The position numbers and the translations under genes are program-made. The notes below the pieces were generated by a model. It was not told where the DNA came from, made no database searches, and saw only the letters and a program-made list of their open reading frames with translations. Positions 104 through 8,887 of a stretch of DNA of 64,000 bases are shown here, in pieces. The DNA comes from Trypanosoma brucei (taxonomy: Eukaryota). The stretch spans positions 832,001 through 896,000 of the forward strand of contig CH464491.1 in assembly GCA_000002445.1 (NCBI GenBank). Reading direction: 5' to 3'. Position 1 is the stretch's first letter. Each line of letters opens with the position of its first letter.

Positions 104-1258
104 TCACATGAAAGGCGCTCCAGTACTCATGGATCCCAGTACCTGCTTGTTGCGATATTTGTACCCGTTATACTTATTAAGCGATGGGGGAAGACGCATC
201 GACTCGATGCAAGCATCATCCAACCGAAACGAGCTGCGGTGATGCATACGCGTCAACGTACTAATGGACCCAGTGGGGGGCGACACCATGGAGTGATACG
301 TGTCAACTGTCAGGTTAAACCAGCGCTTCACAAACATACGGATTGTTTGTCCGTGTGTTAATATCACCACATTTGTGTCCATGGGAAAGTCCATCCGCTC
401 CCGCTGGAAGGCATCTAAGAAGCTTGTAACCCGATCACACACATCAGCGCCACTTTCGCCGTGGGGAAAGCGGTAATAGAACTTGCCATACTTTTCCCTT
501 TCAGCTAGATGGTGCAGGAGCTCCCCCTTTGACTTATATCGTCCGATGTCTCCATCCCGCAGTCGAACATCCTCTCGCACCCCAACAATAGACTCACCTT
601 CCATCTTGTGCTCACTTCTATAGGCATCATACCCGCGCAGCACATGCTTGAATGACTGACGGCACCGCACGTAGGGGGAAAGGTAGTAATACACTGGCTC
701 ATCCCCAATGAGCTGAGCCAGCCGGCGGCCCGCATCATAAGATTCCTCCTCACCCTCAGGAACTATAGGAATACGCCAATCAGGAGTTGTCACGTGCGTG
801 CAAACGTTGACGTTGGCCAGGCTTCTACCGTTGCGCAGGAATATAATGCGCTTCACAGGCTCAACAGGTTGCGTTGGGAACTTAAGCATTTGGCGGCGGT
901 CACCACTGCGAATAGTAATGGACATCCTACCCTGAGACTCCGTGTGTGTTACGTAGGCCGAAGTTGGAGAAGGCACGGAGAACATTGATGAAGCGGGGTC
1001 CGTTGTGGCTGCATTTGCTGCAGTTTCACAAAGGTTAACAGCAACTGCAGGTTCTTCTACTAGTGCCTTGGTTTCCTTTGAGACTTCCAAGGGCCTCACT
1101 GTCTGGGTAGTTGGTTGAGGGTGAAGGTGAGGTGGCCACGTGGAAGACGTGAAGTGCATAACGTCGCATAGCGGTGCCTTTAGTGACCCACATGACACAA
1201 TACGATCCCACTGCTTGCAAATCCGGTGATGAGAGCACCTGCGTACAACTGCCATCAC
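104..1258 (-). CDS. Histidine phosphatase / phosphoglycerate mutase family protein, divergent paralog with RHG->RNG in the catalytic motif
   Basis: 384-aa ORF. It is homologous along its length to the adjacent ORF 1642..2541 (shared ...YYLSPY.R..Q..., YYRFP.GES..DV.DRV..F.D...RE and HG..IR.FV.RW blocks). The N-terminal signature reads IIFLRNGRSLANV instead of LLLVRHGESEANV. Confidence 0.6.
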   Translation of the reverse strand: MMAVVRRCSHHRICKQWDRIVSCGSLKAPLCDVMHFTSSTWPPHLHPQPTTQTVRPLEVSKETKALVEEPAVAVNLCETAANAATTDPASSMFSVPSPTSAYVTHTESQGRMSITIRSGDRRQMLKFPTQPVEPVKRIIFLRNGRSLANVNVCTHVTTPDWRIPIVPEGEEESYDAGRRLAQLIGDEPVYYYLSPYVRCRQSFKHVLRGYDAYRSEHKMEGESIVGVREDVRLRDGDIGRYKSKGELLHHLAEREKYGKFYYRFPHGESGADVCDRVTSFLDAFQRERMDFPMDTNVVILTHGQTIRMFVKRWFNLTVDTYHSMVSPPTGSISTLTRMHHRSSFRLDDACIESMRLPPSLNKYNGYKYRNKQVLGSMSTGAPFM

Positions 1259-1641
1259 GTAGGGGGGAACTCACAGACCACAACTAAAGCTAAAAGAAAC
1301 GATCCGCGACAGCAAAAACGTGAGACTAAACGATAAAATCACAGAGCTAAAATAAGAGCCAAGAGAAACAACTCAAGAGAAGAAAGTAAAACAAAGAAGA
1401 AGAGAGCACGCAAATGCCGCCGGTTAAAAAACAGCTAGCAGGTAAGCGTGTGATGTTGAAAAGAGTGACCTTGGGAGAGGAGTGAGGGGTGACACGCACG
1501 AAAATGAGTGAACACACACATATACCAGGTACGTAAATACGTGTTACGTACATTACACCACTTTGCAAAATCCTTCAACATCACCTTCCCCTCGGGTATG
1601 TACAAGCACCTCTGACTCAGCAAGCATTCACAACCATCAAA

Positions 1642-2541
1642 TTACCGGTCCGTTCCCTCGCCTGCGGAAAAGGAGTAGCCACCTTCAGCGAACAGGTGAC
1701 GAAACAGTTGAACATTATCCTTTCCGTCAAACTTCATCATCTCTAAGAGTGGATCACTGCCGAAAAGCTTCTTGCTAGTATCCGTCATCACCAGTCGCCC
1801 CGCCTCACGCCTCTCCAGCACGACAATCCCGCAGTTGGGTGGGTTCTTCATCGTTTCAAAGACTTCCATCGGCGCCGAATACCACCGCCCAACAAACAAC
1901 CTAATCAAAAGTCCATGCGATATTATCACAACATTATGATCATCGTCGTCCGGTACCGTAAACGAGGCAGGACCGACGTCGTTGCTACTGCCAGTGATCA
2001 TTTGCTTCCGCGCCGAGAGATAATTTAGTTCCACACGTTCGCGAAAGAGGGAATCGAAAAACTTGGACACGCGGTCGCCGACATCCACACTACTTTCACC
2101 ATCTGGAAATCTGTAGTACGAGCGTCCAAACTCACTACGTTCAGCCCACATCTCGTCCATCTTGTCCAGTGGTTGGAAATTGCCAATCTCCTGCTCCCGC
2201 AACCGCTCGTCCTCGCGCTCACCTTGCACCTGTGACGGCAGTAGACTCTTGCGCACCTCGGTTAGGGTCTGTCTGGTGCGCGTGTACGGAGAATAGTAGA
2301 CGTACAATTTTTCATTCTTTATGATCTTCCGGAGCCTCCGGCCGCACTCGAAGGCCTGCTCGCGGCCCCGCGCCGTCAGCGGTATCTTCCAGTCCGGAAC
2401 CTTGCTATACAATGCGCGATCCACATTTGCCTCGGACTCGCCGTGTCGCACAAGAAGCAGCCGCCGTGGGAGCCAGTAACCACTCGACATATCCAGCTTG
2501 CGCCCACATCGTGACATATCACAACTCAAGTGCTGGCGCAA
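1642..2541 (-). CDS. Histidine phosphatase (phosphoglycerate mutase family) with intact RHGE catalytic motif
   Basis: 299-aa ORF containing LLLVRHGESEANVD (the RHG catalytic-His signature of PGAM/branch-1 histidine phosphatases), a YYSPYTRTRQT segment and a downstream ISHGLLIR second-His region. Confidence 0.7.
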   Translation of the reverse strand: MRQHLSCDMSRCGRKLDMSSGYWLPRRLLLVRHGESEANVDRALYSKVPDWKIPLTARGREQAFECGRRLRKIIKNEKLYVYYSPYTRTRQTLTEVRKSLLPSQVQGEREDERLREQEIGNFQPLDKMDEMWAERSEFGRSYYRFPDGESSVDVGDRVSKFFDSLFRERVELNYLSARKQMITGSSNDVGPASFTVPDDDDHNVVIISHGLLIRLFVGRWYSAPMEVFETMKNPPNCGIVVLERREAGRLVMTDTSKKLFGSDPLLEMMKFDGKDNVQLFRHLFAEGGYSFSAGEGTDR

Positions 2542-3972: not shown

Positions 3973-4338
3973 CTAAGCGAGGTCGGTATCCGCACCAGCG
4001 GCCTCAAGTTTTTCCTTAATATCATTCATAAAGGGCATGATGCGCTCGCGCTGGATGCGAAGGTTGGCAACAGCTTCCTCACCCTCCATTACTGTTCCAT
4101 CATCATCCCAAAGGTCTGTGCAATCCTGCACGTACTGGTTTTTCGTACCGTACCGCTCGAAAACAAAGTATCGAATGGCCAATGCCTGGACGAGGATCAC
4201 ACTGCAGGTGATCTTCAGTAGCGTCTTCATAGTAGCACCACTGATGCCCGTTTCACCAGGATTAGGGTAAAAGTACGTGCGTGCACCGGCGGCGGCGGTG
4301 CGTGCAAGTGGAGTGGAGCAAACGCAACGGCGGAGCAT
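3973..4338 (-). CDS. Hypothetical small protein with an Arg/Ala-rich N-terminus resembling a mitochondrial presequence and one predicted TM helix
   Basis: 121-aa ORF on the sense strand of the cluster. N-terminus MLRRCVCSTPLARTAAAGART; hydrophobic stretch TLLKITCSVILVQALAIRYFVF; acidic C-terminus. No recognisable family. Confidence 0.3.
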   Translation of the reverse strand: MLRRCVCSTPLARTAAAGARTYFYPNPGETGISGATMKTLLKITCSVILVQALAIRYFVFERYGTKNQYVQDCTDLWDDDGTVMEGEEAVANLRIQRERIMPFMNDIKEKLEAAGADTDLA

Positions 4339-4695: not shown

Positions 4696-5823
4696 TTAGT
4701 CGAGTTCATCACCGCTAGTCATAACGTAGGCGTCGACGATATCGTCCAGAAGCGGCAGCACATGTTCGTTAAGGAATTTGCAGGTGTCAGCCTGAACCTT
4801 ACCCGCAGTTACCGATGCCTGAAGATGTTTCTTTGCATTTAACTCTTCTAGTAGCCCAATACCCGCCTCGGTTTGCATGAGATTCGCAGTAATTTCCGCG
4901 AGCAGCATCTCGATTTCCCCAATGTGTTCAGCGCCATCACTCAGGCGCTCAACACACACACGAAGGCAGCGGCTGCGCAGAATCCCAGGGTGTCGCTCAC
5001 GCTGGAAACTGCAGTTGCGAAAACACTGTGCTGCCAGCAACCGATGCCGCGGGTTCAAGGAACTAAGACAGTCTGAAAGAGCCATTAACCAGTCGTCATC
5101 TTCCAGCAGAAGCTCCTGTCCGTCTGCTACGCGCGTGACGTTTAGTAAGATCTGCAAAATCCACCGCTGAAGGTCACGGGGAACTGTCTTGTTCAACTCC
5201 TCACTCTTGTTTCCGCCACTGTTACTACGAACCGCATCCCCCTCGCTAAGTTTCTTGTTGTCATCTCCCCCATCTTCCTGCTGCTGCTCCCCAGCTACAG
5301 CAACCTCAACACTGCAACCATCGTCAACAGTAAATCGGGTGTAATATGTCAGCAACTTTCCCAAGTAAAATCCACGAAGATCTTCATCAGTCACCTGCAA
5401 CAGATCATCTACCGCGCTCACGTGACTTGCCGTCAGGTTGCTTAGGAGCATCAACGTCATTTCCTCCAACCCCCGCTGGAGCGACTGGGGATGATCAGAG
5501 GCCTCAACGCTGTCAATAAGTCGCATAGCCCTGCGCACAACCTTCTGGGTCACAAGAACCTCCGTGCATGTGCCATCCGCGGCGCAGTTGATGAGTACAG
5601 TCAAGACATCCCCCAACAAGGCGACGCTTCCCGCGTGCAAAAACTGGAGCAAGACGTCAATGCAACGGGGGCCGTGCGTAGAAGATGCGAGGAGAGCAAA
5701 GAGCTCCTTGTTGTCTTTGCTCTGTTGTGCAAGTCCCTGGACAGCCATTTTGCGCACATCCTCGCGTCCACTGCTAATGAACCCGAAGACCTCTACGAGT
5801 TCCGTCTCGCAGTCATCGCCCAT
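4696..5823 (-). CDS. HGH1 (FAM203/brain protein 16) homolog, ARM/HEAT-like
   Basis: 375-aa ORF. MLLSNLTASHVS and CFRNCSFQRERHPGIL align with the conserved LLSNLS... and LRNCCFEH.HH..LL blocks of HGH1 proteins as I recall them. Helical repeat character throughout. Confidence 0.5.
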   Translation of the reverse strand: MGDDCETELVEVFGFISSGREDVRKMAVQGLAQQSKDNKELFALLASSTHGPRCIDVLLQFLHAGSVALLGDVLTVLINCAADGTCTEVLVTQKVVRRAMRLIDSVEASDHPQSLQRGLEEMTLMLLSNLTASHVSAVDDLLQVTDEDLRGFYLGKLLTYYTRFTVDDGCSVEVAVAGEQQQEDGGDDNKKLSEGDAVRSNSGGNKSEELNKTVPRDLQRWILQILLNVTRVADGQELLLEDDDWLMALSDCLSSLNPRHRLLAAQCFRNCSFQRERHPGILRSRCLRVCVERLSDGAEHIGEIEMLLAEITANLMQTEAGIGLLEELNAKKHLQASVTAGKVQADTCKFLNEHVLPLLDDIVDAYVMTSGDELD

Positions 5824-6466: not shown

Positions 6467-8887
6467 TCACCATTTCGGTTGTGATGTCACAAAAAGCTGC
6501 TGTTGTGTTACAGCAACCTTTTTCGCCTCTTCCACTAAAAGATCATGCGCCTTCTGCCCGCATGCCATACGCAATGACCGCACTGCGGCGAAAAGATCCC
6601 GAGCGCTCTGCTGGGGCATGAGGGACGGCTCTACATAACCCGAGTCGTTTATCTGTTCAATAAGTTCAAAGACATGGCGCAGATACTCCACAATAACAGA
6701 GCTCCTCGATGCGGCAAGCCGAACGGAAAGCACAACCTCCTCTACGAAAACTTGCAGAAGCCATGTGACAGCAGTGACGCACGAACGGCTTCGGTGCACA
6801 ACAGCCCCGCCGTATGTAAGGGCCTTTCGTGCCAAGCTGTGCAGCTCACGCATAAGCGCAGCCTCGTCCTGCACCAACTGGAACTCAAGCGTACGGTCTG
6901 TCCCACCAAGAGCCAAGTCGAGTCGCGCAGTAGTCTTCGCGTGCTGGTCCGCTGCCGTCCGCAAAGCAGCAAACGTCATCCAAAAGTGCGACTCAGCGAG
7001 CTCCATTTCAGTGGGTGTGGCCGACAGGGCAATGCTATCCCTTCGGAGGTTTGGTAGGATAGTTCGACGTATTATCCCTGCCACGTCTGTAATAGCGTCC
7101 AGCTCCGCGCGTGGTTCCGCCAACCAGAAAGAGCCACAGGCCTCGAGTGAGTGACGCAAGGCGACGATGAAGTCGTCAGGTGAATCCGCATGCATCGCCC
7201 GCCACATCACAGCCTCTGCAAGGGGATTATGCGTCAGCAGGGTGGCGGGTTCCACCTTCTGGTTCAGCAACCGCATCACCTCGTCGTGTACTTCACTCAC
7301 TGGATCAGCCTTACAAAACATCTGTACCAGCTTTTCTTCTAGAGCTTCCACCTCTTCCCGTTTGGTTAGCTGCAGCTCTCGGCACCTACACGCAACAAGG
7401 AACGCAGCGTACACCGAGGCTCGCTGCCGTGCATCACGCAGACGTAAGTTCATCGCAATTACCGCCCTCATTGCGTCCTGTGGCGCGTAATGTGGAAGCT
7501 GCACAAGACTTTCGGCATATCGAGTGAGAGCCTCGGCAAGGCTAGTCGAGTACACTTGTACAGAACGTGAGTGTAACGCCTCACTGTACGCTGTATCAAG
7601 GCACAGTAACAAGTGGGAAACCAACCTAACGCCATTAGGGTCGCTTTGAGCAACACCTTTGACTCTGCTCAAATCATTCAACACATTTGTCCAATCCGCG
7701 TTGTCGGAGGAAAGAAAGTGAAGAATGACGCGCATTTGTAGCTTTTCCTCAAACGACACTGTGGCAAAGTAACTACTCTCAAGTCTATCGGCAAGACGAC
7801 GCACTACTGACTGTGCCGTTTCGTCTTGCCAAGAGTCATGCGATCCAGTGAGTCGCTCTACCAGAGCCCCATATGGTGCCTGGACATTATGGCGTGCAGC
7901 CATCAGCGTCTTTGTAAAGCACAGCACCAGTGCAGAGCGAAGGTGACACCACACCACGTCCTTCCAGTTTCCCGTAGCGAAGGCTGGCTCCATAACATCC
8001 AGGTTGCCGCACAGCACTGCCGCAATAAGCCCATCCAAGCCTCCGCCTGCTGTTTGTCCCTCACTTGATGTGGAAAGGGCCACAGAGTCTTCATACAGCT
8101 GAGAAAGATTATCAAGTCGGTGCTCATTGCACGCCCACTCCAGATCCACCTCCCCGTTGCCGTATTCCCCGAATAAGGGCACCAAAGGTGTTGCGTTAAA
8201 CCACGGTTCTGCCACCGTTTGCATCTGCGCGGCGCTCAGCAGGCAGCTGTACATGCAGTCTTTGGCCGTCACTGACAAATCTATGGCACGGTGAAGCTCA
8301 CCACCGCGTAAGCACGATAGAACAATCTGTCGCAGCAGCACAGCCTCTTCAGGGGTGCGAGACGAAGCCAACTTCAGGGGTGCGTTCCCGGTGCGGTAAA
8401 CCCGCTCCAGCCACCGGATAATAATGTTCATACGGCGGAGCAACGGTTGACGCTGCAGCAAGTCTTGGATATGGGCTTGATGAGAAACGTACCACTGCCT
8501 ATGGGGCTGTACTTTCGCTATGCCAATAGCATCGGGGTTGTACTTCACAGCTTGTTCCGCATCCAGTAGAAGTTCTAATAGCAAACTCCACAAATTAGAC
8601 TCCTCCACACGATTATCTCGTTTGGACCACCGCATGAACTGATCGGCTGTAAAGACAGAACGAACCACGGAGCCAAGATAAACTTCGGCAAAAGCCCGCG
8701 ATGGGTGCGCCGAAGTGCTGTTCGTGTCGTTTGCAGCTCCAGTGTCCAACCAATTATCGTGGACAGCAAATATAGAGCCACGATCATAAATACTGACCTT
8801 CTCACCAAGTGGCGGCAACTCCACCATGCCATGCTGCTGCTCAAATGTTGTCAGCATGTCTTTAAGTGTCGTCGGCTTTCCTTCCAC
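6467..8887 (-). CDS. Nucleoporin of the Nup84/Nup107 family (candidate Nup89-type outer-ring nucleoporin)
   Basis: 806-aa all-helical ORF of the size and composition expected for the kinetoplastid Nup84/107 ortholog (~89 kDa). The call rests on a weak, remembered similarity to Nup107-domain proteins and is not motif-proven. Confidence 0.35.
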   Translation of the reverse strand: MEGKPTTLKDMLTTFEQQHGMVELPPLGEKVSIYDRGSIFAVHDNWLDTGAANDTNSTSAHPSRAFAEVYLGSVVRSVFTADQFMRWSKRDNRVEESNLWSLLLELLLDAEQAVKYNPDAIGIAKVQPHRQWYVSHQAHIQDLLQRQPLLRRMNIIIRWLERVYRTGNAPLKLASSRTPEEAVLLRQIVLSCLRGGELHRAIDLSVTAKDCMYSCLLSAAQMQTVAEPWFNATPLVPLFGEYGNGEVDLEWACNEHRLDNLSQLYEDSVALSTSSEGQTAGGGLDGLIAAVLCGNLDVMEPAFATGNWKDVVWCHLRSALVLCFTKTLMAARHNVQAPYGALVERLTGSHDSWQDETAQSVVRRLADRLESSYFATVSFEEKLQMRVILHFLSSDNADWTNVLNDLSRVKGVAQSDPNGVRLVSHLLLCLDTAYSEALHSRSVQVYSTSLAEALTRYAESLVQLPHYAPQDAMRAVIAMNLRLRDARQRASVYAAFLVACRCRELQLTKREEVEALEEKLVQMFCKADPVSEVHDEVMRLLNQKVEPATLLTHNPLAEAVMWRAMHADSPDDFIVALRHSLEACGSFWLAEPRAELDAITDVAGIIRRTILPNLRRDSIALSATPTEMELAESHFWMTFAALRTAADQHAKTTARLDLALGGTDRTLEFQLVQDEAALMRELHSLARKALTYGGAVVHRSRSCVTAVTWLLQVFVEEVVLSVRLAASRSSVIVEYLRHVFELIEQINDSGYVEPSLMPQQSARDLFAAVRSLRMACGQKAHDLLVEEAKKVAVTQQQLFVTSQPKW

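What the first reader, a model, noticed from the sequence alone, without database searches (positions are those of the whole stretch)
104..2541. Tandem PGAM-family histidine phosphatase pair; upstream copy has RHG->RNG
Two adjacent same-strand paralogs share collinear blocks, so this looks like a tandem duplication. The downstream-transcribed copy (1642..2541) keeps LVRHGESEAN, with the phospho-acceptor His. The other copy (104..1258) reads FLRNGRSLAN: His->Asn and Glu->Arg at the catalytic RHGE. It keeps the distal ILTHGQTIR histidine region and has gained a ~110-aa Pro/Thr-rich N-terminal extension. That pattern suggests neofunctionalisation into a non-catalytic or altered-specificity paralog.
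Basis: seen in the sequence. Interest (0 to 1): 0.5.

Follow-up and report, generated by a model that had tools for sequence, protein, structure and literature searches.

The report
Ancient dead histidine-phosphatase paralog in trypanosomes
Two neighbouring Trypanosoma brucei genes encode related mitochondrial phosphatase-fold proteins, and one of them lost its catalytic histidine before the kinetoplastids diversified yet has been kept almost unchanged, so it is a conserved "dead enzyme" of unknown role rather than a mutation or an error.

Summary
Window 104-1258(-) and 1642-2541(-) are T. brucei chr11 genes Tb927.11.2910 and Tb927.11.2920. Both are His_Phos_1 proteins, 35% identical (E 4e-48).

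- **Motif change.** Tb927.11.2920 has RHG. Tb927.11.2910 has RNG at the homologous position.
- **Age.** The His is missing in every kinetoplastid ortholog examined (N, S, G, C or T). The order RHG gene then RNG gene is conserved from Bodo saltans to Leishmania.
- **What the clade keeps and adds.** It changes the general-acid Glu to Asp. It keeps both pocket Arg and the second His. It carries a clade-defining C-terminal tail (...RNKxxLGSxSxGAPxM).
- **Selection.** The domain is under extreme purifying selection (dN/dS 0.005-0.03 in Leishmania).
- **Expression and location.** Published proteomics puts both proteins in the mitochondrion. TrypTag, as tabulated in PMC7568655, puts Tb927.11.2910 at the mitochondrion and kinetoplast.

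Best reading: an ancient, expressed pseudophosphatase that probably binds a phosphorylated ligand without hydrolysing it. It may act with its active neighbour ("prozyme"-like), but that was not tested.

- Both genes are on the minus strand, so the RNG copy is the downstream one.
- The duplication is ancient, with no DNA similarity left.
- The database names (iPGAM, glycerolphosphate mutase) are unsupported.

I found no dedicated study. This is a new member of a known kind, of moderate interest.

The parts
104..1255 (-). CDS of Tb927.11.2910 (383 aa plus stop), the RNG (nucleophile-less) histidine-phosphatase paralog, annotated 'phosphoglycerate mutase, putative (iPGAM)'
   Evidence: ORF. The exact protein is XP_828373/Q386M0 and is identical in T. 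b. gambiense and T. equiperdum. Gene ID. PF00300 at 56.4 bits.
1181..1255 (-). N-terminal 25 aa, MAVVRRCSHHRICKQWDRIVSCGSL: basic and presequence-like (6 K+R and 1 D+E in the first 30 aa)
   Evidence: Orthologs begin MxRR/MLSRSR. The protein is depleted from mitochondria on ATOM40 RNAi. That this stretch is a presequence is inferred.
857..1255 (-). 133-aa N-terminal extension, lineage-variable, predicted disordered
   Evidence: pLDDT below about 60. Lengths are 20-30 aa in bodonid types, about 85-135 aa in Trypanosoma and about 300 aa in Leishmania. dN/dS is 0.52 in Leishmania.
905..925 (-). Conserved MSITIRS motif. Its Met coincides with the start, or near-start, of bodonid orthologs
200..856 (-). 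His_Phos_1 core domain (aa 134-352)
   Evidence: AF2 pLDDT is above 90 over most of the core. Foldseek matches branch-1 histidine phosphatases. Pfam match.
827..835 (-). RNG (R141-N142-G143), in place of the catalytic RHG; N142 sits at the phospho-acceptor position
   Evidence: In the tail clade the residue is N32, S4, C4, H2, G1. Elsewhere it is His in 40/40 and 215/216.
665..667 (-). R197, the second phosphate-pocket Arg (SPYxR), retained
   Evidence: 44/44 in the tail clade. Aligned to the SPRLR Arg of YKR043C.
554..556 (-). D234, at the position of the general-acid Glu (RLRDGDIG versus RLREQEIG)
   Evidence: Tail clade D39, G6, P1. Elsewhere Glu in 43/43 and 217/219. Alignment.
353..355 (-). 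H301, the second catalytic-core His (THG), retained
   Evidence: 46/47 in the tail clade
107..166 (-). Clade-defining C-terminal tail GYKYRNKQVLGSMSTGAPFM-COOH
   Evidence: Nearly invariant in 47 sequences and absent from all other homologs. Only about 15 clusters at 50% identity reach the profile end, and there is a score gap. Predicted flexible, pLDDT 30-50.
1259..1641 (-). Intergenic region with polypyrimidine tracts and several AG dinucleotides upstream of ATG 1255, plausible trans-splice acceptor signals
   Evidence: Read directly from the sequence. Function inferred from general knowledge of trypanosome mRNA processing.
1642..2517 (-). CDS of Tb927.11.2920 (291 aa plus stop), the catalytically intact paralog, annotated 'glycerolphosphate mutase, putative'
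   Evidence: PF00300 at 98.7 bits.
2440..2448 (-). RHG (R24-H25-G26) of the intact copy. R80 (2278-2280), E108 (2194-2196) and H201 (1915-1917) complete the catalytic core
   Evidence: Aligned to the TIGAR RHG.

Best explanation
**What it is.** Tb927.11.2910 (window 104-1255, minus strand) is an ancient, expressed, mitochondrial pseudophosphatase.
- It has the branch-1 histidine-phosphatase fold.
- It has no phospho-acceptor His; the position holds Asn here and Ser, Gly, Cys or Thr in other kinetoplastids.
- The general-acid Glu is replaced by Asp.
- It is encoded immediately downstream of its catalytically intact paralog Tb927.11.2920.

**Shown here.**
- The loss is homologous in position and is found in every kinetoplastid sequence examined.
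- The gene pair and its order are conserved from Bodo saltans to Leishmania.
- The domain is under very strong purifying selection.
- The phosphate-pocket residues (Arg141, Arg197, His301) stay essentially invariant.
- A conserved 20-aa C-terminal tail defines the clade.

**Shown by others.** Both proteins are imported into mitochondria, and Tb927.11.2910 localises to the mitochondrion and kinetoplast.

**Inferred.**
- The covalent phospho-His mechanism is impossible, yet the anion pocket is preserved. The protein therefore most likely binds a phosphorylated (or similarly anionic) ligand or protein without turning it over by that mechanism. It would act as a sensor, trap or regulatory subunit.
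- The flexible C-terminal tail probably serves as an active-site lid or a partner-docking peptide.
For: **Homology and position of the change.**
- Pairwise alignment, E = 4e-48; Pfam.
- A profile of the clade aligns RnG, SPYiR, RLRd and tHG to RHG, SPRLR, LRE and AHG of the solved yeast YKR043C.

**Conservation of the loss and of the pocket.**
- Nucleophile: N32, S4, C4, H2, G1 in the tail clade, against His in 40/40 and 215/216 elsewhere.
- General acid: D39, G6, P1, against Glu in 43/43 and 217/219.
- Retained: R141 43/43, R197 44/44, H301 46/47.
- Phytomonas reads RTG and Bodo saltans RNG.

**Synteny.** The RHG gene followed by the RNG gene on one strand, with a zf-HIT gene next in most loci, is seen in:
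- L. donovani, L. tarentolae, T. cruzi and T. melophagium;
- Phytomonas and B. saltans;
- two metagenomic bodonid-type contigs and one Logan (SRA-assembly) contig.

**Selection.** L. donovani against L. tarentolae gives dN/dS 0.026 and 0.005 for the two halves of the domain. The N-terminal extension gives 0.52 and the insert 0.22, at dS about 0.4-0.5.

**Fold.** AF2 core pLDDT is above 90. Foldseek returns branch-1 histidine phosphatases.

**Expression and localisation.**
- 6 peptides detected in the purified-mitochondria set; ratio 0.277 in purified mitochondria after ATOM40 RNAi (the neighbour gives 0.274); listed in the mitochondrial reference set; unaffected by ERV1 RNAi (0.94) (Peikert 2017, PMC5436138).
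- TrypTag gives 'mitochondrion, kinetoplast' (PMC7568655).
Against: - There is no biochemical datum on activity or ligand binding for either protein.
- Ser or Cys at the nucleophile position in some lineages (T. cruzi clade RSG; P0027-29 RCG) could in principle act as nucleophiles.
- Asp could still serve as a general acid, so residual or altered catalysis is not excluded.
- The tail is predicted with low confidence and was not seen docking anywhere.
- No solved structure or complex contains the protein.
- The only interaction hint is one co-fractionation edge to KREPA3, in a supplement that was truncated when stored.
Confidence: 0.55

Rival explanations
1. **Prozyme-type partner.** The dead paralog forms a heteromer with the neighbouring active phosphatase Tb927.11.2920 and activates or regulates it. 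AdoMetDC prozyme, DHSp and PRMT1-PRO do this for their active paralogs in trypanosomatids.
For: - The dead and active paralogs are kept as an adjacent pair, in the same order, in every kinetoplastid locus examined.
- Both are mitochondrial and respond almost identically to ATOM40 RNAi (0.277 against 0.274).
- The prozyme paradigm is established in T. brucei for three other enzymes (PMC5201418, PMC3663545, bioRxiv 10.1101/776112).
- Many branch-1 histidine phosphatases are dimers (general knowledge).
Against: - There is no evidence of physical association. Tb927.11.2920 is absent from the stored part of the Gazestani table, and neither protein is in the Crozier supplements.
- The active copy keeps a complete catalytic core and shows no obvious impairment.
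- Similar depletion ratios are typical of imported proteins in general (KREPA3 gives 0.229).
- Adjacency in a polycistronic unit does not imply co-regulation.
- Tail-bearing relatives with RHG exist, so the lineage began as an independent enzyme.
Confidence: 0.2
2. **Still an enzyme.** The protein catalyses phosphoryl transfer or hydrolysis by altered chemistry. Examples are direct water attack using Asp234 and His301, or a different substrate class such as an acyl-phosphate or phosphoramidate. On this view the family has been repurposed rather than inactivated.
For: - Nearly the whole pocket is under extreme constraint.
- Asp replaces Glu consistently, and does so even in the RHG-bearing tail-clade member P0042. 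This suggests a tuned acid-base residue rather than decay.
- Reviews note that some 'pseudoenzymes' have migrated catalytic residues (abstract of PMC10211241, listed).
Against: - The residue at the nucleophile position varies freely (N, S, C, G, T) among orthologs that are otherwise 50-80% identical. This argues that no specific side chain is needed there.
- No compensating invariant nucleophile was identified near the motif. Cys273 is clade-specific, but its position relative to the pocket was not examined.
Confidence: 0.14
3. **Scaffold with a relic pocket.** The fold is conserved only as a structural subunit of a kinetoplast or mitochondrial complex, for example RNA-editing or kDNA-associated machinery. 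The tail and the MSITIRS motif would be the functional contacts.
For: - TrypTag shows kinetoplast enrichment.
- There is one co-fractionation edge with the editosome protein KREPA3.
- The tail and the MSITIRS motif are conserved but predicted unstructured in the monomer.
Against: - Invariance of precisely the phosphate-binding Arg, Arg and His residues is hard to explain if the pocket is unused.
- The protein is absent from every solved trypanosomal mitochondrial complex in the PDB.
- The interaction evidence is a single edge.
Confidence: 0.1
4. **Artefact or decay.** This would be a strain-specific mutation, a sequencing error or a decaying pseudogene.
For: None found. The Phytomonas EM1 copy is split by frameshifts and the Angomonas copy is truncated, which could be local decay or assembly error.
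Against: - The protein is identical in three T. brucei-group assemblies.
- His is absent in all kinetoplastid orthologs examined.
- dN/dS is 0.005-0.03 in the domain.
- Peptides are detected by mass spectrometry.
Confidence: 0.01

Closest known systems
Tb927.11.2920 and its kinetoplastid orthologs ('glycerolphosphate mutase, putative'), grouped with AT74/AT74H-like histidine phosphatases of plants, algae and bacteria
   Same: - Same Pfam family and collinear domain; 35% identity.
- Shared sub-family motifs: DW.IPL, SPY.R, REDxRLR, YYRFP.GES..DV.DRV.
- Same organelle.
- Adjacent on the chromosome.
   Different: - The RNG copy lacks the nucleophile His, has Asp in place of the general-acid Glu, and has GRY in place of GNF after it.
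- It carries the C-terminal LGSxSxGAPxM tail and the MSITIRS motif.
- The active copy is closer to non-kinetoplastid homologs (40-45% identity) than to its neighbour.
Trypanosomatid prozymes (AdoMetDC prozyme, DHSp, PRMT1 PRO)
   Same: A catalytically dead paralog of an enzyme, retained under selection across trypanosomatids alongside the active paralog (PMC5201418, PMC3663545, 10.1101/776112).
   Different: - The fold and chemistry differ.
- No heteromer or activation has been shown here.
- The active partner here has an intact catalytic core, whereas prozyme partners are intrinsically weak enzymes.
- This dead paralog predates the trypanosomatids, since it is present in Bodo.
Yeast YKR043C (Shb17), a solved branch-1 histidine phosphatase (3lg2, 3f3k, 3ll4)
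   Same: Best sequence match in the PDB to the clade profile (E = 9e-7). The alignment covers RHG, SPxxR, LRE and HG.
   Different: - Similarity is only remote.
- YKR043C has the His nucleophile and the Glu.
- It has no equivalent tail.
Cofactor-dependent phosphoglycerate mutase (dPGM), TIGAR and the FBPase-2 domain
   Same: Same fold: Foldseek E about 1e-11, TM (target-normalised) 0.6-0.78. TIGAR is the best PDB sequence hit for the RHG copy.
   Different: - Identity is 15-22%.
- Both window proteins score far below every NCBIfam dPGM cut-off (15.7 and 30 bits against 305).
- The RNG copy cannot form the phospho-His intermediate that dPGM catalysis requires.
Pseudophosphatases of other folds, such as STYX and inactive myotubularin-related proteins (from general knowledge, not tested here)
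   Same: The concept is the same: a phosphatase fold that has lost its nucleophile but keeps a phospho-binding pocket and acts as a binder or regulator.
   Different: These are Cys-based PTP folds and are not homologous. The analogy is functional only.

Membership tests
Histidine phosphatase superfamily, branch 1 (PF00300) | Sequence match above the Pfam gathering score, and the alpha/beta PGM-like fold | tested here: met
   56.4 bits (RNG copy) and 98.7 bits (RHG copy) against a cut-off of 21.7. The AF2 core has pLDDT above 90, and Foldseek top hits are all branch-1 enzymes.
Histidine phosphatase superfamily, branch 1 (PF00300) | RHG motif with the phospho-acceptor His | tested here: not met
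   The RNG copy has Asn142. The RHG copy has His25, so this feature is met for that gene.
Histidine phosphatase superfamily, branch 1 (PF00300) | Phosphate pocket: Arg of RHG, the second Arg, and the second His (HG) | tested here: met
   R141, R197 and H301 are present and nearly invariant in the clade. They align to the YKR043C equivalents.
Histidine phosphatase superfamily, branch 1 (PF00300) | Glu general acid (LxE..G motif) | tested here: not met
   The RNG copy has Asp234. The clade shows D39, G6, P1, against Glu in 260/262 other homologs.
Cofactor-dependent phosphoglycerate mutase (dPGM) | Score at or above the NCBIfam equivalog cut-offs for dPGM | tested here: not met
   Against PRK14115 (cut-off 305 bits) the RNG copy scores 15.7 bits and the RHG copy 30 bits.
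Cofactor-independent phosphoglycerate mutase (iPGAM, the name carried by Tb927.11.2910) | Metalloenzyme / iPGM_N domains of the alkaline-phosphatase superfamily | tested here: not met
   The Pfam scan at E <= 0.1 returns His_Phos_1 and, below threshold, a RecO_N match (E 0.065, 13.7 bits against a cut-off of 27). There is no Metalloenzyme or iPGM_N hit.
Prozyme-type dead-paralog regulators (trypanosomatid) | A catalytically dead paralog conserved alongside an active paralog in the same compartment | tested here: met
Prozyme-type dead-paralog regulators (trypanosomatid) | Physical heteromer with the active paralog, and activation of it | not testable with these tools
No co-purification data were found.
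   The RNG copy has no PDB hit at E <= 0.001. The RHG copy hits zebrafish TIGAR only weakly (E = 5.7e-7), and no PGAM5 or Sts chain appears. T. brucei has a separate annotated PGAM5, Tb927.11.10340.

The most novel reading that the evidence does not exclude
Tb927.11.2910 is the regulatory half of a two-gene mitochondrial phosphatase module that has been conserved since the kinetoplastid ancestor. Two forms of this reading remain open.
- It is a prozyme-like subunit that controls the neighbouring active histidine phosphatase. This would be the first phosphatase example of the trypanosomatid prozyme paradigm.
- It is a kinetoplast-associated phospho-ligand 'reader' that couples a phosphorylated metabolite or protein to kDNA or RNA-editing functions. 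The conserved C-terminal tail would be the docking or lid element.
Probability: 0.2. Interest if true: 0.6.

Novelty: new member of a known kind. Interest (0 to 1): 0.38.

Why it matters
- **Annotation.** Two T. brucei gene names are wrong or unsupported: 'iPGAM' and 'glycerolphosphate mutase'.
- **A defined clade.** The work delimits a small, sharply bounded protein clade. It has about 15 clusters at 50% identity among 1.84 billion representatives. It is marked by a nucleophile-less pocket and a unique C-terminal tail.
- **A candidate pair.** It adds a candidate enzyme and pseudoenzyme pair in the kinetoplastid mitochondrion. Dead paralogs have repeatedly turned out to be essential regulators in these organisms, and parasite-specific ones.
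- **A tractable question.** Tb927.11.2910 localises to the kinetoplast and was a hit in a melarsoprol gain-of-function screen. That gives a concrete experimental target, though nothing here addresses a long-standing open problem.

Tried and rejected
- **PDB sequence search, RNG protein.** No hit, so the protein is not in any solved trypanosomal complex.
- **Literature.**
  - Searching by UniProt accession, Leishmania gene IDs and T. brucei gene IDs found only one screen table and proteomics supplements. No dedicated study turned up.
  - The Crozier 2017 complex-prediction supplements contain neither gene.
  - The Alsford RIT-seq paper is not held, so I have no fitness data.
- **dN/dS in Trypanosoma.** Synonymous sites are saturated in every Trypanosoma pair (pS 0.72-0.85), so only the Leishmania pair was informative.
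- **Phylogeny.**
  - Both clades are strongly supported in the NJ tree (100% and 99%).
  - The tree does not resolve whether they are exclusive sisters. The group that also includes four other sequences gets 56%; the two clades alone get 5.5%.
  - No maximum-likelihood program was available.
- **Source organisms of the RHG-bearing tail proteins.** P0186 has one unnamed relative. P0042 sits on a 1.6-kb metagenome contig with no context.
- **DNA-level similarity or gene conversion between the copies.** I found only chance matches of 9-14 nt.
- **Not attempted.** I considered a fused-chain AlphaFold run to model the heterodimer.
- **Rejected readings.** A recent T. brucei-specific duplication, a sequencing error and a pseudogene are all ruled out.
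Full report
**What is at the coordinates**

- The window carries two minus-strand ORFs, at 104..1258 and 1642..2541.
- The mechanical GTG and TTG starts are not the real ones.
  - From ATG 1255, the first protein (383 aa) is identical to T. brucei TREU927 XP_828373/Q386M0. It is also identical to the T. b. gambiense and T. equiperdum proteins.
  - From ATG 2517, the second protein (291 aa) is 100% identical to the T. b. gambiense 'glycerolphosphate mutase, putative'.
- The supplementary tables of Peikert et al. 2017 give the gene IDs:
  - Tb927.11.2910: Tb11.02.0430, 'phosphoglycerate mutase, putative (iPGAM)'.
  - Tb927.11.2920: Tb11.02.0440, 'glycerolphosphate mutase, putative'.
- Both genes lie on the minus strand, as does every non-nested ORF of 200 aa or more in the window. 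The RHG gene is therefore transcribed first and the RNG gene lies downstream.
- The 383-bp spacer contains polypyrimidine tracts and AG dinucleotides upstream of ATG 1255. This is compatible with the long ORF being the translated one.

Yes.
- The proteins share 35% identity over 228 aa, E = 4e-48. Both pass Pfam His_Phos_1.
- RNG (aa 141-143, nt 827-835) aligns exactly with RHG of the neighbour.
- Through a clade profile, RNG also aligns with the RHG of the solved yeast phosphatase YKR043C. That alignment also maps SPYxR to SPRLR, RLRD to LRE, and THG to AHG.
- The quoted strings and coordinates were verified by translation.
- No nucleotide similarity remains between the copies.

**How old and how conserved is the change?**

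Homologs of the RNG protein fall into a sharply bounded clade.
- The clade is marked by a C-terminal tail...NGYxxRNKxxLGSxSxGAPxM-COOH.
- In an exhaustive profile search of 1.84 billion representative proteins, only about 15 clusters reach the end of the profile. After them the remaining homologs stop short of the tail and score 251 bits or less.

Residue counts at the key positions:

| Position | Tail clade | Kinetoplastid RHG-clade | Other homologs |
|---|---|---|---|
| Nucleophile | N 32, S 4, C 4, G 1, H 2 (of 43 covering the site) | His 40/40 | His 215/216 |
| General acid | D 39, G 6, P 1 | Glu 43/43 | Glu 217/219 |
| R141 | 43/43 | | |
| R197 | 44/44 | | |
| H301 | 46/47 | | |

- Read directly from their loci, Phytomonas has RTG and Bodo saltans RNG.
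- Among the sequences with a source name, T. brucei, T. congolense, T. vivax, Leishmania, Leptomonas, Novymonas, Porcisia and Angomonas read RNG. T. cruzi, T. rangeli and T. melophagium read RSG, and T. grayi RGG.
- Three tail-bearing sequences of unknown origin still have RHG: P0042, P0186 and P0314. P0042 already has Asp at the acid position; P0186 and P0314 have Pro there. All three lack the Glu. The tail and the loss of the acid Glu therefore predate the loss of the His.

**Synteny**

- The arrangement is the RHG gene followed by the RNG gene on the same strand. A zf-HIT gene follows in L. donovani, L. tarentolae, T. cruzi, T. melophagium, Phytomonas EM1 and the two ENA bodonid-type contigs.
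- It is found in L. donovani, L. tarentolae, T. cruzi, T. melophagium, Phytomonas EM1 and Bodo saltans. It is also found in two ENA metagenome contigs of bodonid type and one Logan (SRA-assembly) contig.
- Locus tags in L. martiniquensis and Porcisia hertigi are consecutive as well.
- The pair therefore dates at least to the common ancestor of Bodo and the trypanosomatids.
- An NJ tree supports each clade (100% and 99% bootstrap). It gives only 56% for a group containing both clades plus four other sequences, and 5.5% for the two alone. A tandem duplication is the natural reading of the adjacency, but the tree does not prove it.

**Selection**

- For L. donovani against L. tarentolae (dS about 0.4-0.5), the two halves of the domain of the RNG gene give dN/dS 0.026 and 0.005.
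- Its N-terminal extension gives 0.52 and an internal low-complexity insert 0.22.
- Over their full lengths the two paralogs have similar dN/dS, 0.24 and 0.23.
- Trypanosoma pairs are saturated at synonymous sites.
- This is a protein under strong constraint, not a decaying copy.

**Structure**

- The AF2 model (69-sequence alignment) is confident for residues 134-352 (pLDDT mostly above 90).
- It is not confident for residues 1-120 or for the C-terminal tail 366-383.
- Foldseek against the PDB returns only generic branch-1 histidine phosphatases, at 15-22% identity: dPGM, CobC, Rv2419c, TIGAR and FBPase-2.
- Neither protein approaches any NCBIfam dPGM cut-off, and there is no iPGAM-type domain. 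Family-level tests therefore do not support the database names.

**What others have measured**

- In Peikert et al. 2017 (PMC5436138), both proteins are in the mitochondrial reference set.
  - Both fall about 3.6-fold in gradient-purified mitochondria after ATOM40 RNAi (ratios 0.277 and 0.274, p about 0.001).
  - Both were detected with 5-7 peptides in the purified-mitochondria and whole-cell sets.
  - Tb927.11.2910 is unaffected by ERV1 RNAi.
- A table in PMC7568655 quotes TrypTag as 'mitochondrion (75%), kinetoplast (75%)' for Tb927.11.2910. It lists the gene as 23-fold over-represented among melarsoprol survivors in a gain-of-function screen, without individual validation.
- Table S2 of Gazestani et al. 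2016 contains one edge between Tb927.11.2910 and Tb927.8.620 (KREPA3). I take this to be a co-fractionation edge; I did not read the table's header or caption. The file was truncated in storage, so this is weak evidence.
- I found no paper dedicated to either gene.

**Interpretation**

- Shown: the canonical phospho-His mechanism is impossible for Tb927.11.2910, the loss is ancient, and the protein is expressed, imported into mitochondria and strongly constrained.
- Inferred: the anion-binding residues are invariant while the residue at the nucleophile position drifts among N, S, C, G and T. The pocket is therefore probably still used for binding but not for covalent catalysis. That makes the protein a pseudophosphatase.
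- The conserved but flexible C-terminal tail could be an active-site lid, as C-terminal tails are in dPGMs (general knowledge). It could also be a docking peptide.
- The most attractive specific model is a prozyme-like partnership with the neighbouring active enzyme. It fits the trypanosomatid precedent and the conserved pairing. No association data support it, and the active copy looks fully competent, so I rate it at about 0.2.
- Altered catalysis (about 0.14) and a pure scaffold role (about 0.1) remain possible.
- Error or pseudogene is excluded.

**Novelty and score**

- Pseudoenzymes are common and trypanosomatids are known for functional dead paralogs. This is a new member of a known kind.
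- It is well defined and apparently undescribed, but it is not surprising to a specialist and does not open a long-standing question.
- Interest is 0.38.

Noticed in passing
window 905-925 (-); L001 6001-6798; L010 7113-8006: The Met of the conserved MSITIRS motif is invariant in all trypanosomatid orthologs. It coincides with the first residue of several bodonid-type gene models; Bodo saltans has only a 23-aa MLSRSR... leader before it. It may be the ancestral or an alternative start codon, or it may lie next to a presequence cleavage site.
   Followed up: partly
L005 1866-3374 and 5001-6863; L006 likewise: In Leishmania both paralogs are greatly expanded by low-complexity Ser/Ala/Pro-rich segments at different places. 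The RNG gene has a ~300-aa N-terminal region and an ~80-aa internal insert. The RHG gene has a ~150-aa insert before SHG and a long C-terminal extension. In the RNG gene these segments evolve much faster than the domain (dN/dS 0.22-0.52 against 0.005-0.03).
   Followed up: partly
L009 7784-9282 (Phytomonas sp. EM1): The RNG-type gene reads RTG and is split over three reading frames in the assembly. The C-terminal third, including the tail, is perfectly conserved. This is either assembly frameshifts or an early pseudogene. Angomonas deanei P0053 is similarly truncated after RLRDGDIGRY.
   Followed up: partly
P0187; L010 7113-8006; P0032, P0037, P0038 and P0027-29: Some tail-clade members have further erosion of the core. 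P0187 has RCG and also TDG in place of THG, so it has lost both histidines. Seven sequences, including Bodo saltans, read THD in place of THG.
   Followed up: no
window 104-1255 and 1642-2517: The database product names are misleading. 'iPGAM' denotes the unrelated metal-dependent mutase family, and 'glycerolphosphate mutase' has no support. Both proteins score far below every dPGM equivalog cut-off.
   Followed up: yes
window 3973-4338 (-): A 121-aa ORF begins MLRRCVCSTPLAR, which looks like a presequence, and has no Pfam match. By position it is probably Tb927.11.2930, which Peikert et al. list in the mitochondrial reference set. If so, three consecutive genes encode mitochondrial proteins.
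   Followed up: partly
window 62643-63797 (-); 6467-8887 (-); 4696-5823 (-): Other genes in the unit are a metacaspase (Peptidase_C14, E = 1.6e-34), a Nup84/Nup107-like nucleoporin (E = 4.6e-16), and a weak DUF383 match that falls below the Pfam cut-off.
   Followed up: partly
Tb927.11.2910 (literature): Two isolated functional hints exist. One is a single edge to the editosome protein KREPA3, probably from co-fractionation (Gazestani 2016 S2; the table header was not read). The other is 23-fold enrichment in a melarsoprol gain-of-function screen, without individual validation (PMC7568655).
   Followed up: partly
window 1-64000: All non-nested ORFs of 200 aa or more are on the minus strand, and GC skew is negative in most 2-kb windows across the window. 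This is consistent with a single polycistronic transcription unit.
   Followed up: no
window 437-439 (Cys273 of the RNG protein): DVCDRV: a Cys is conserved in 40/47 tail-clade sequences, where most other homologs have Tyr or Phe. Its position relative to the pocket was not examined.
   Followed up: no
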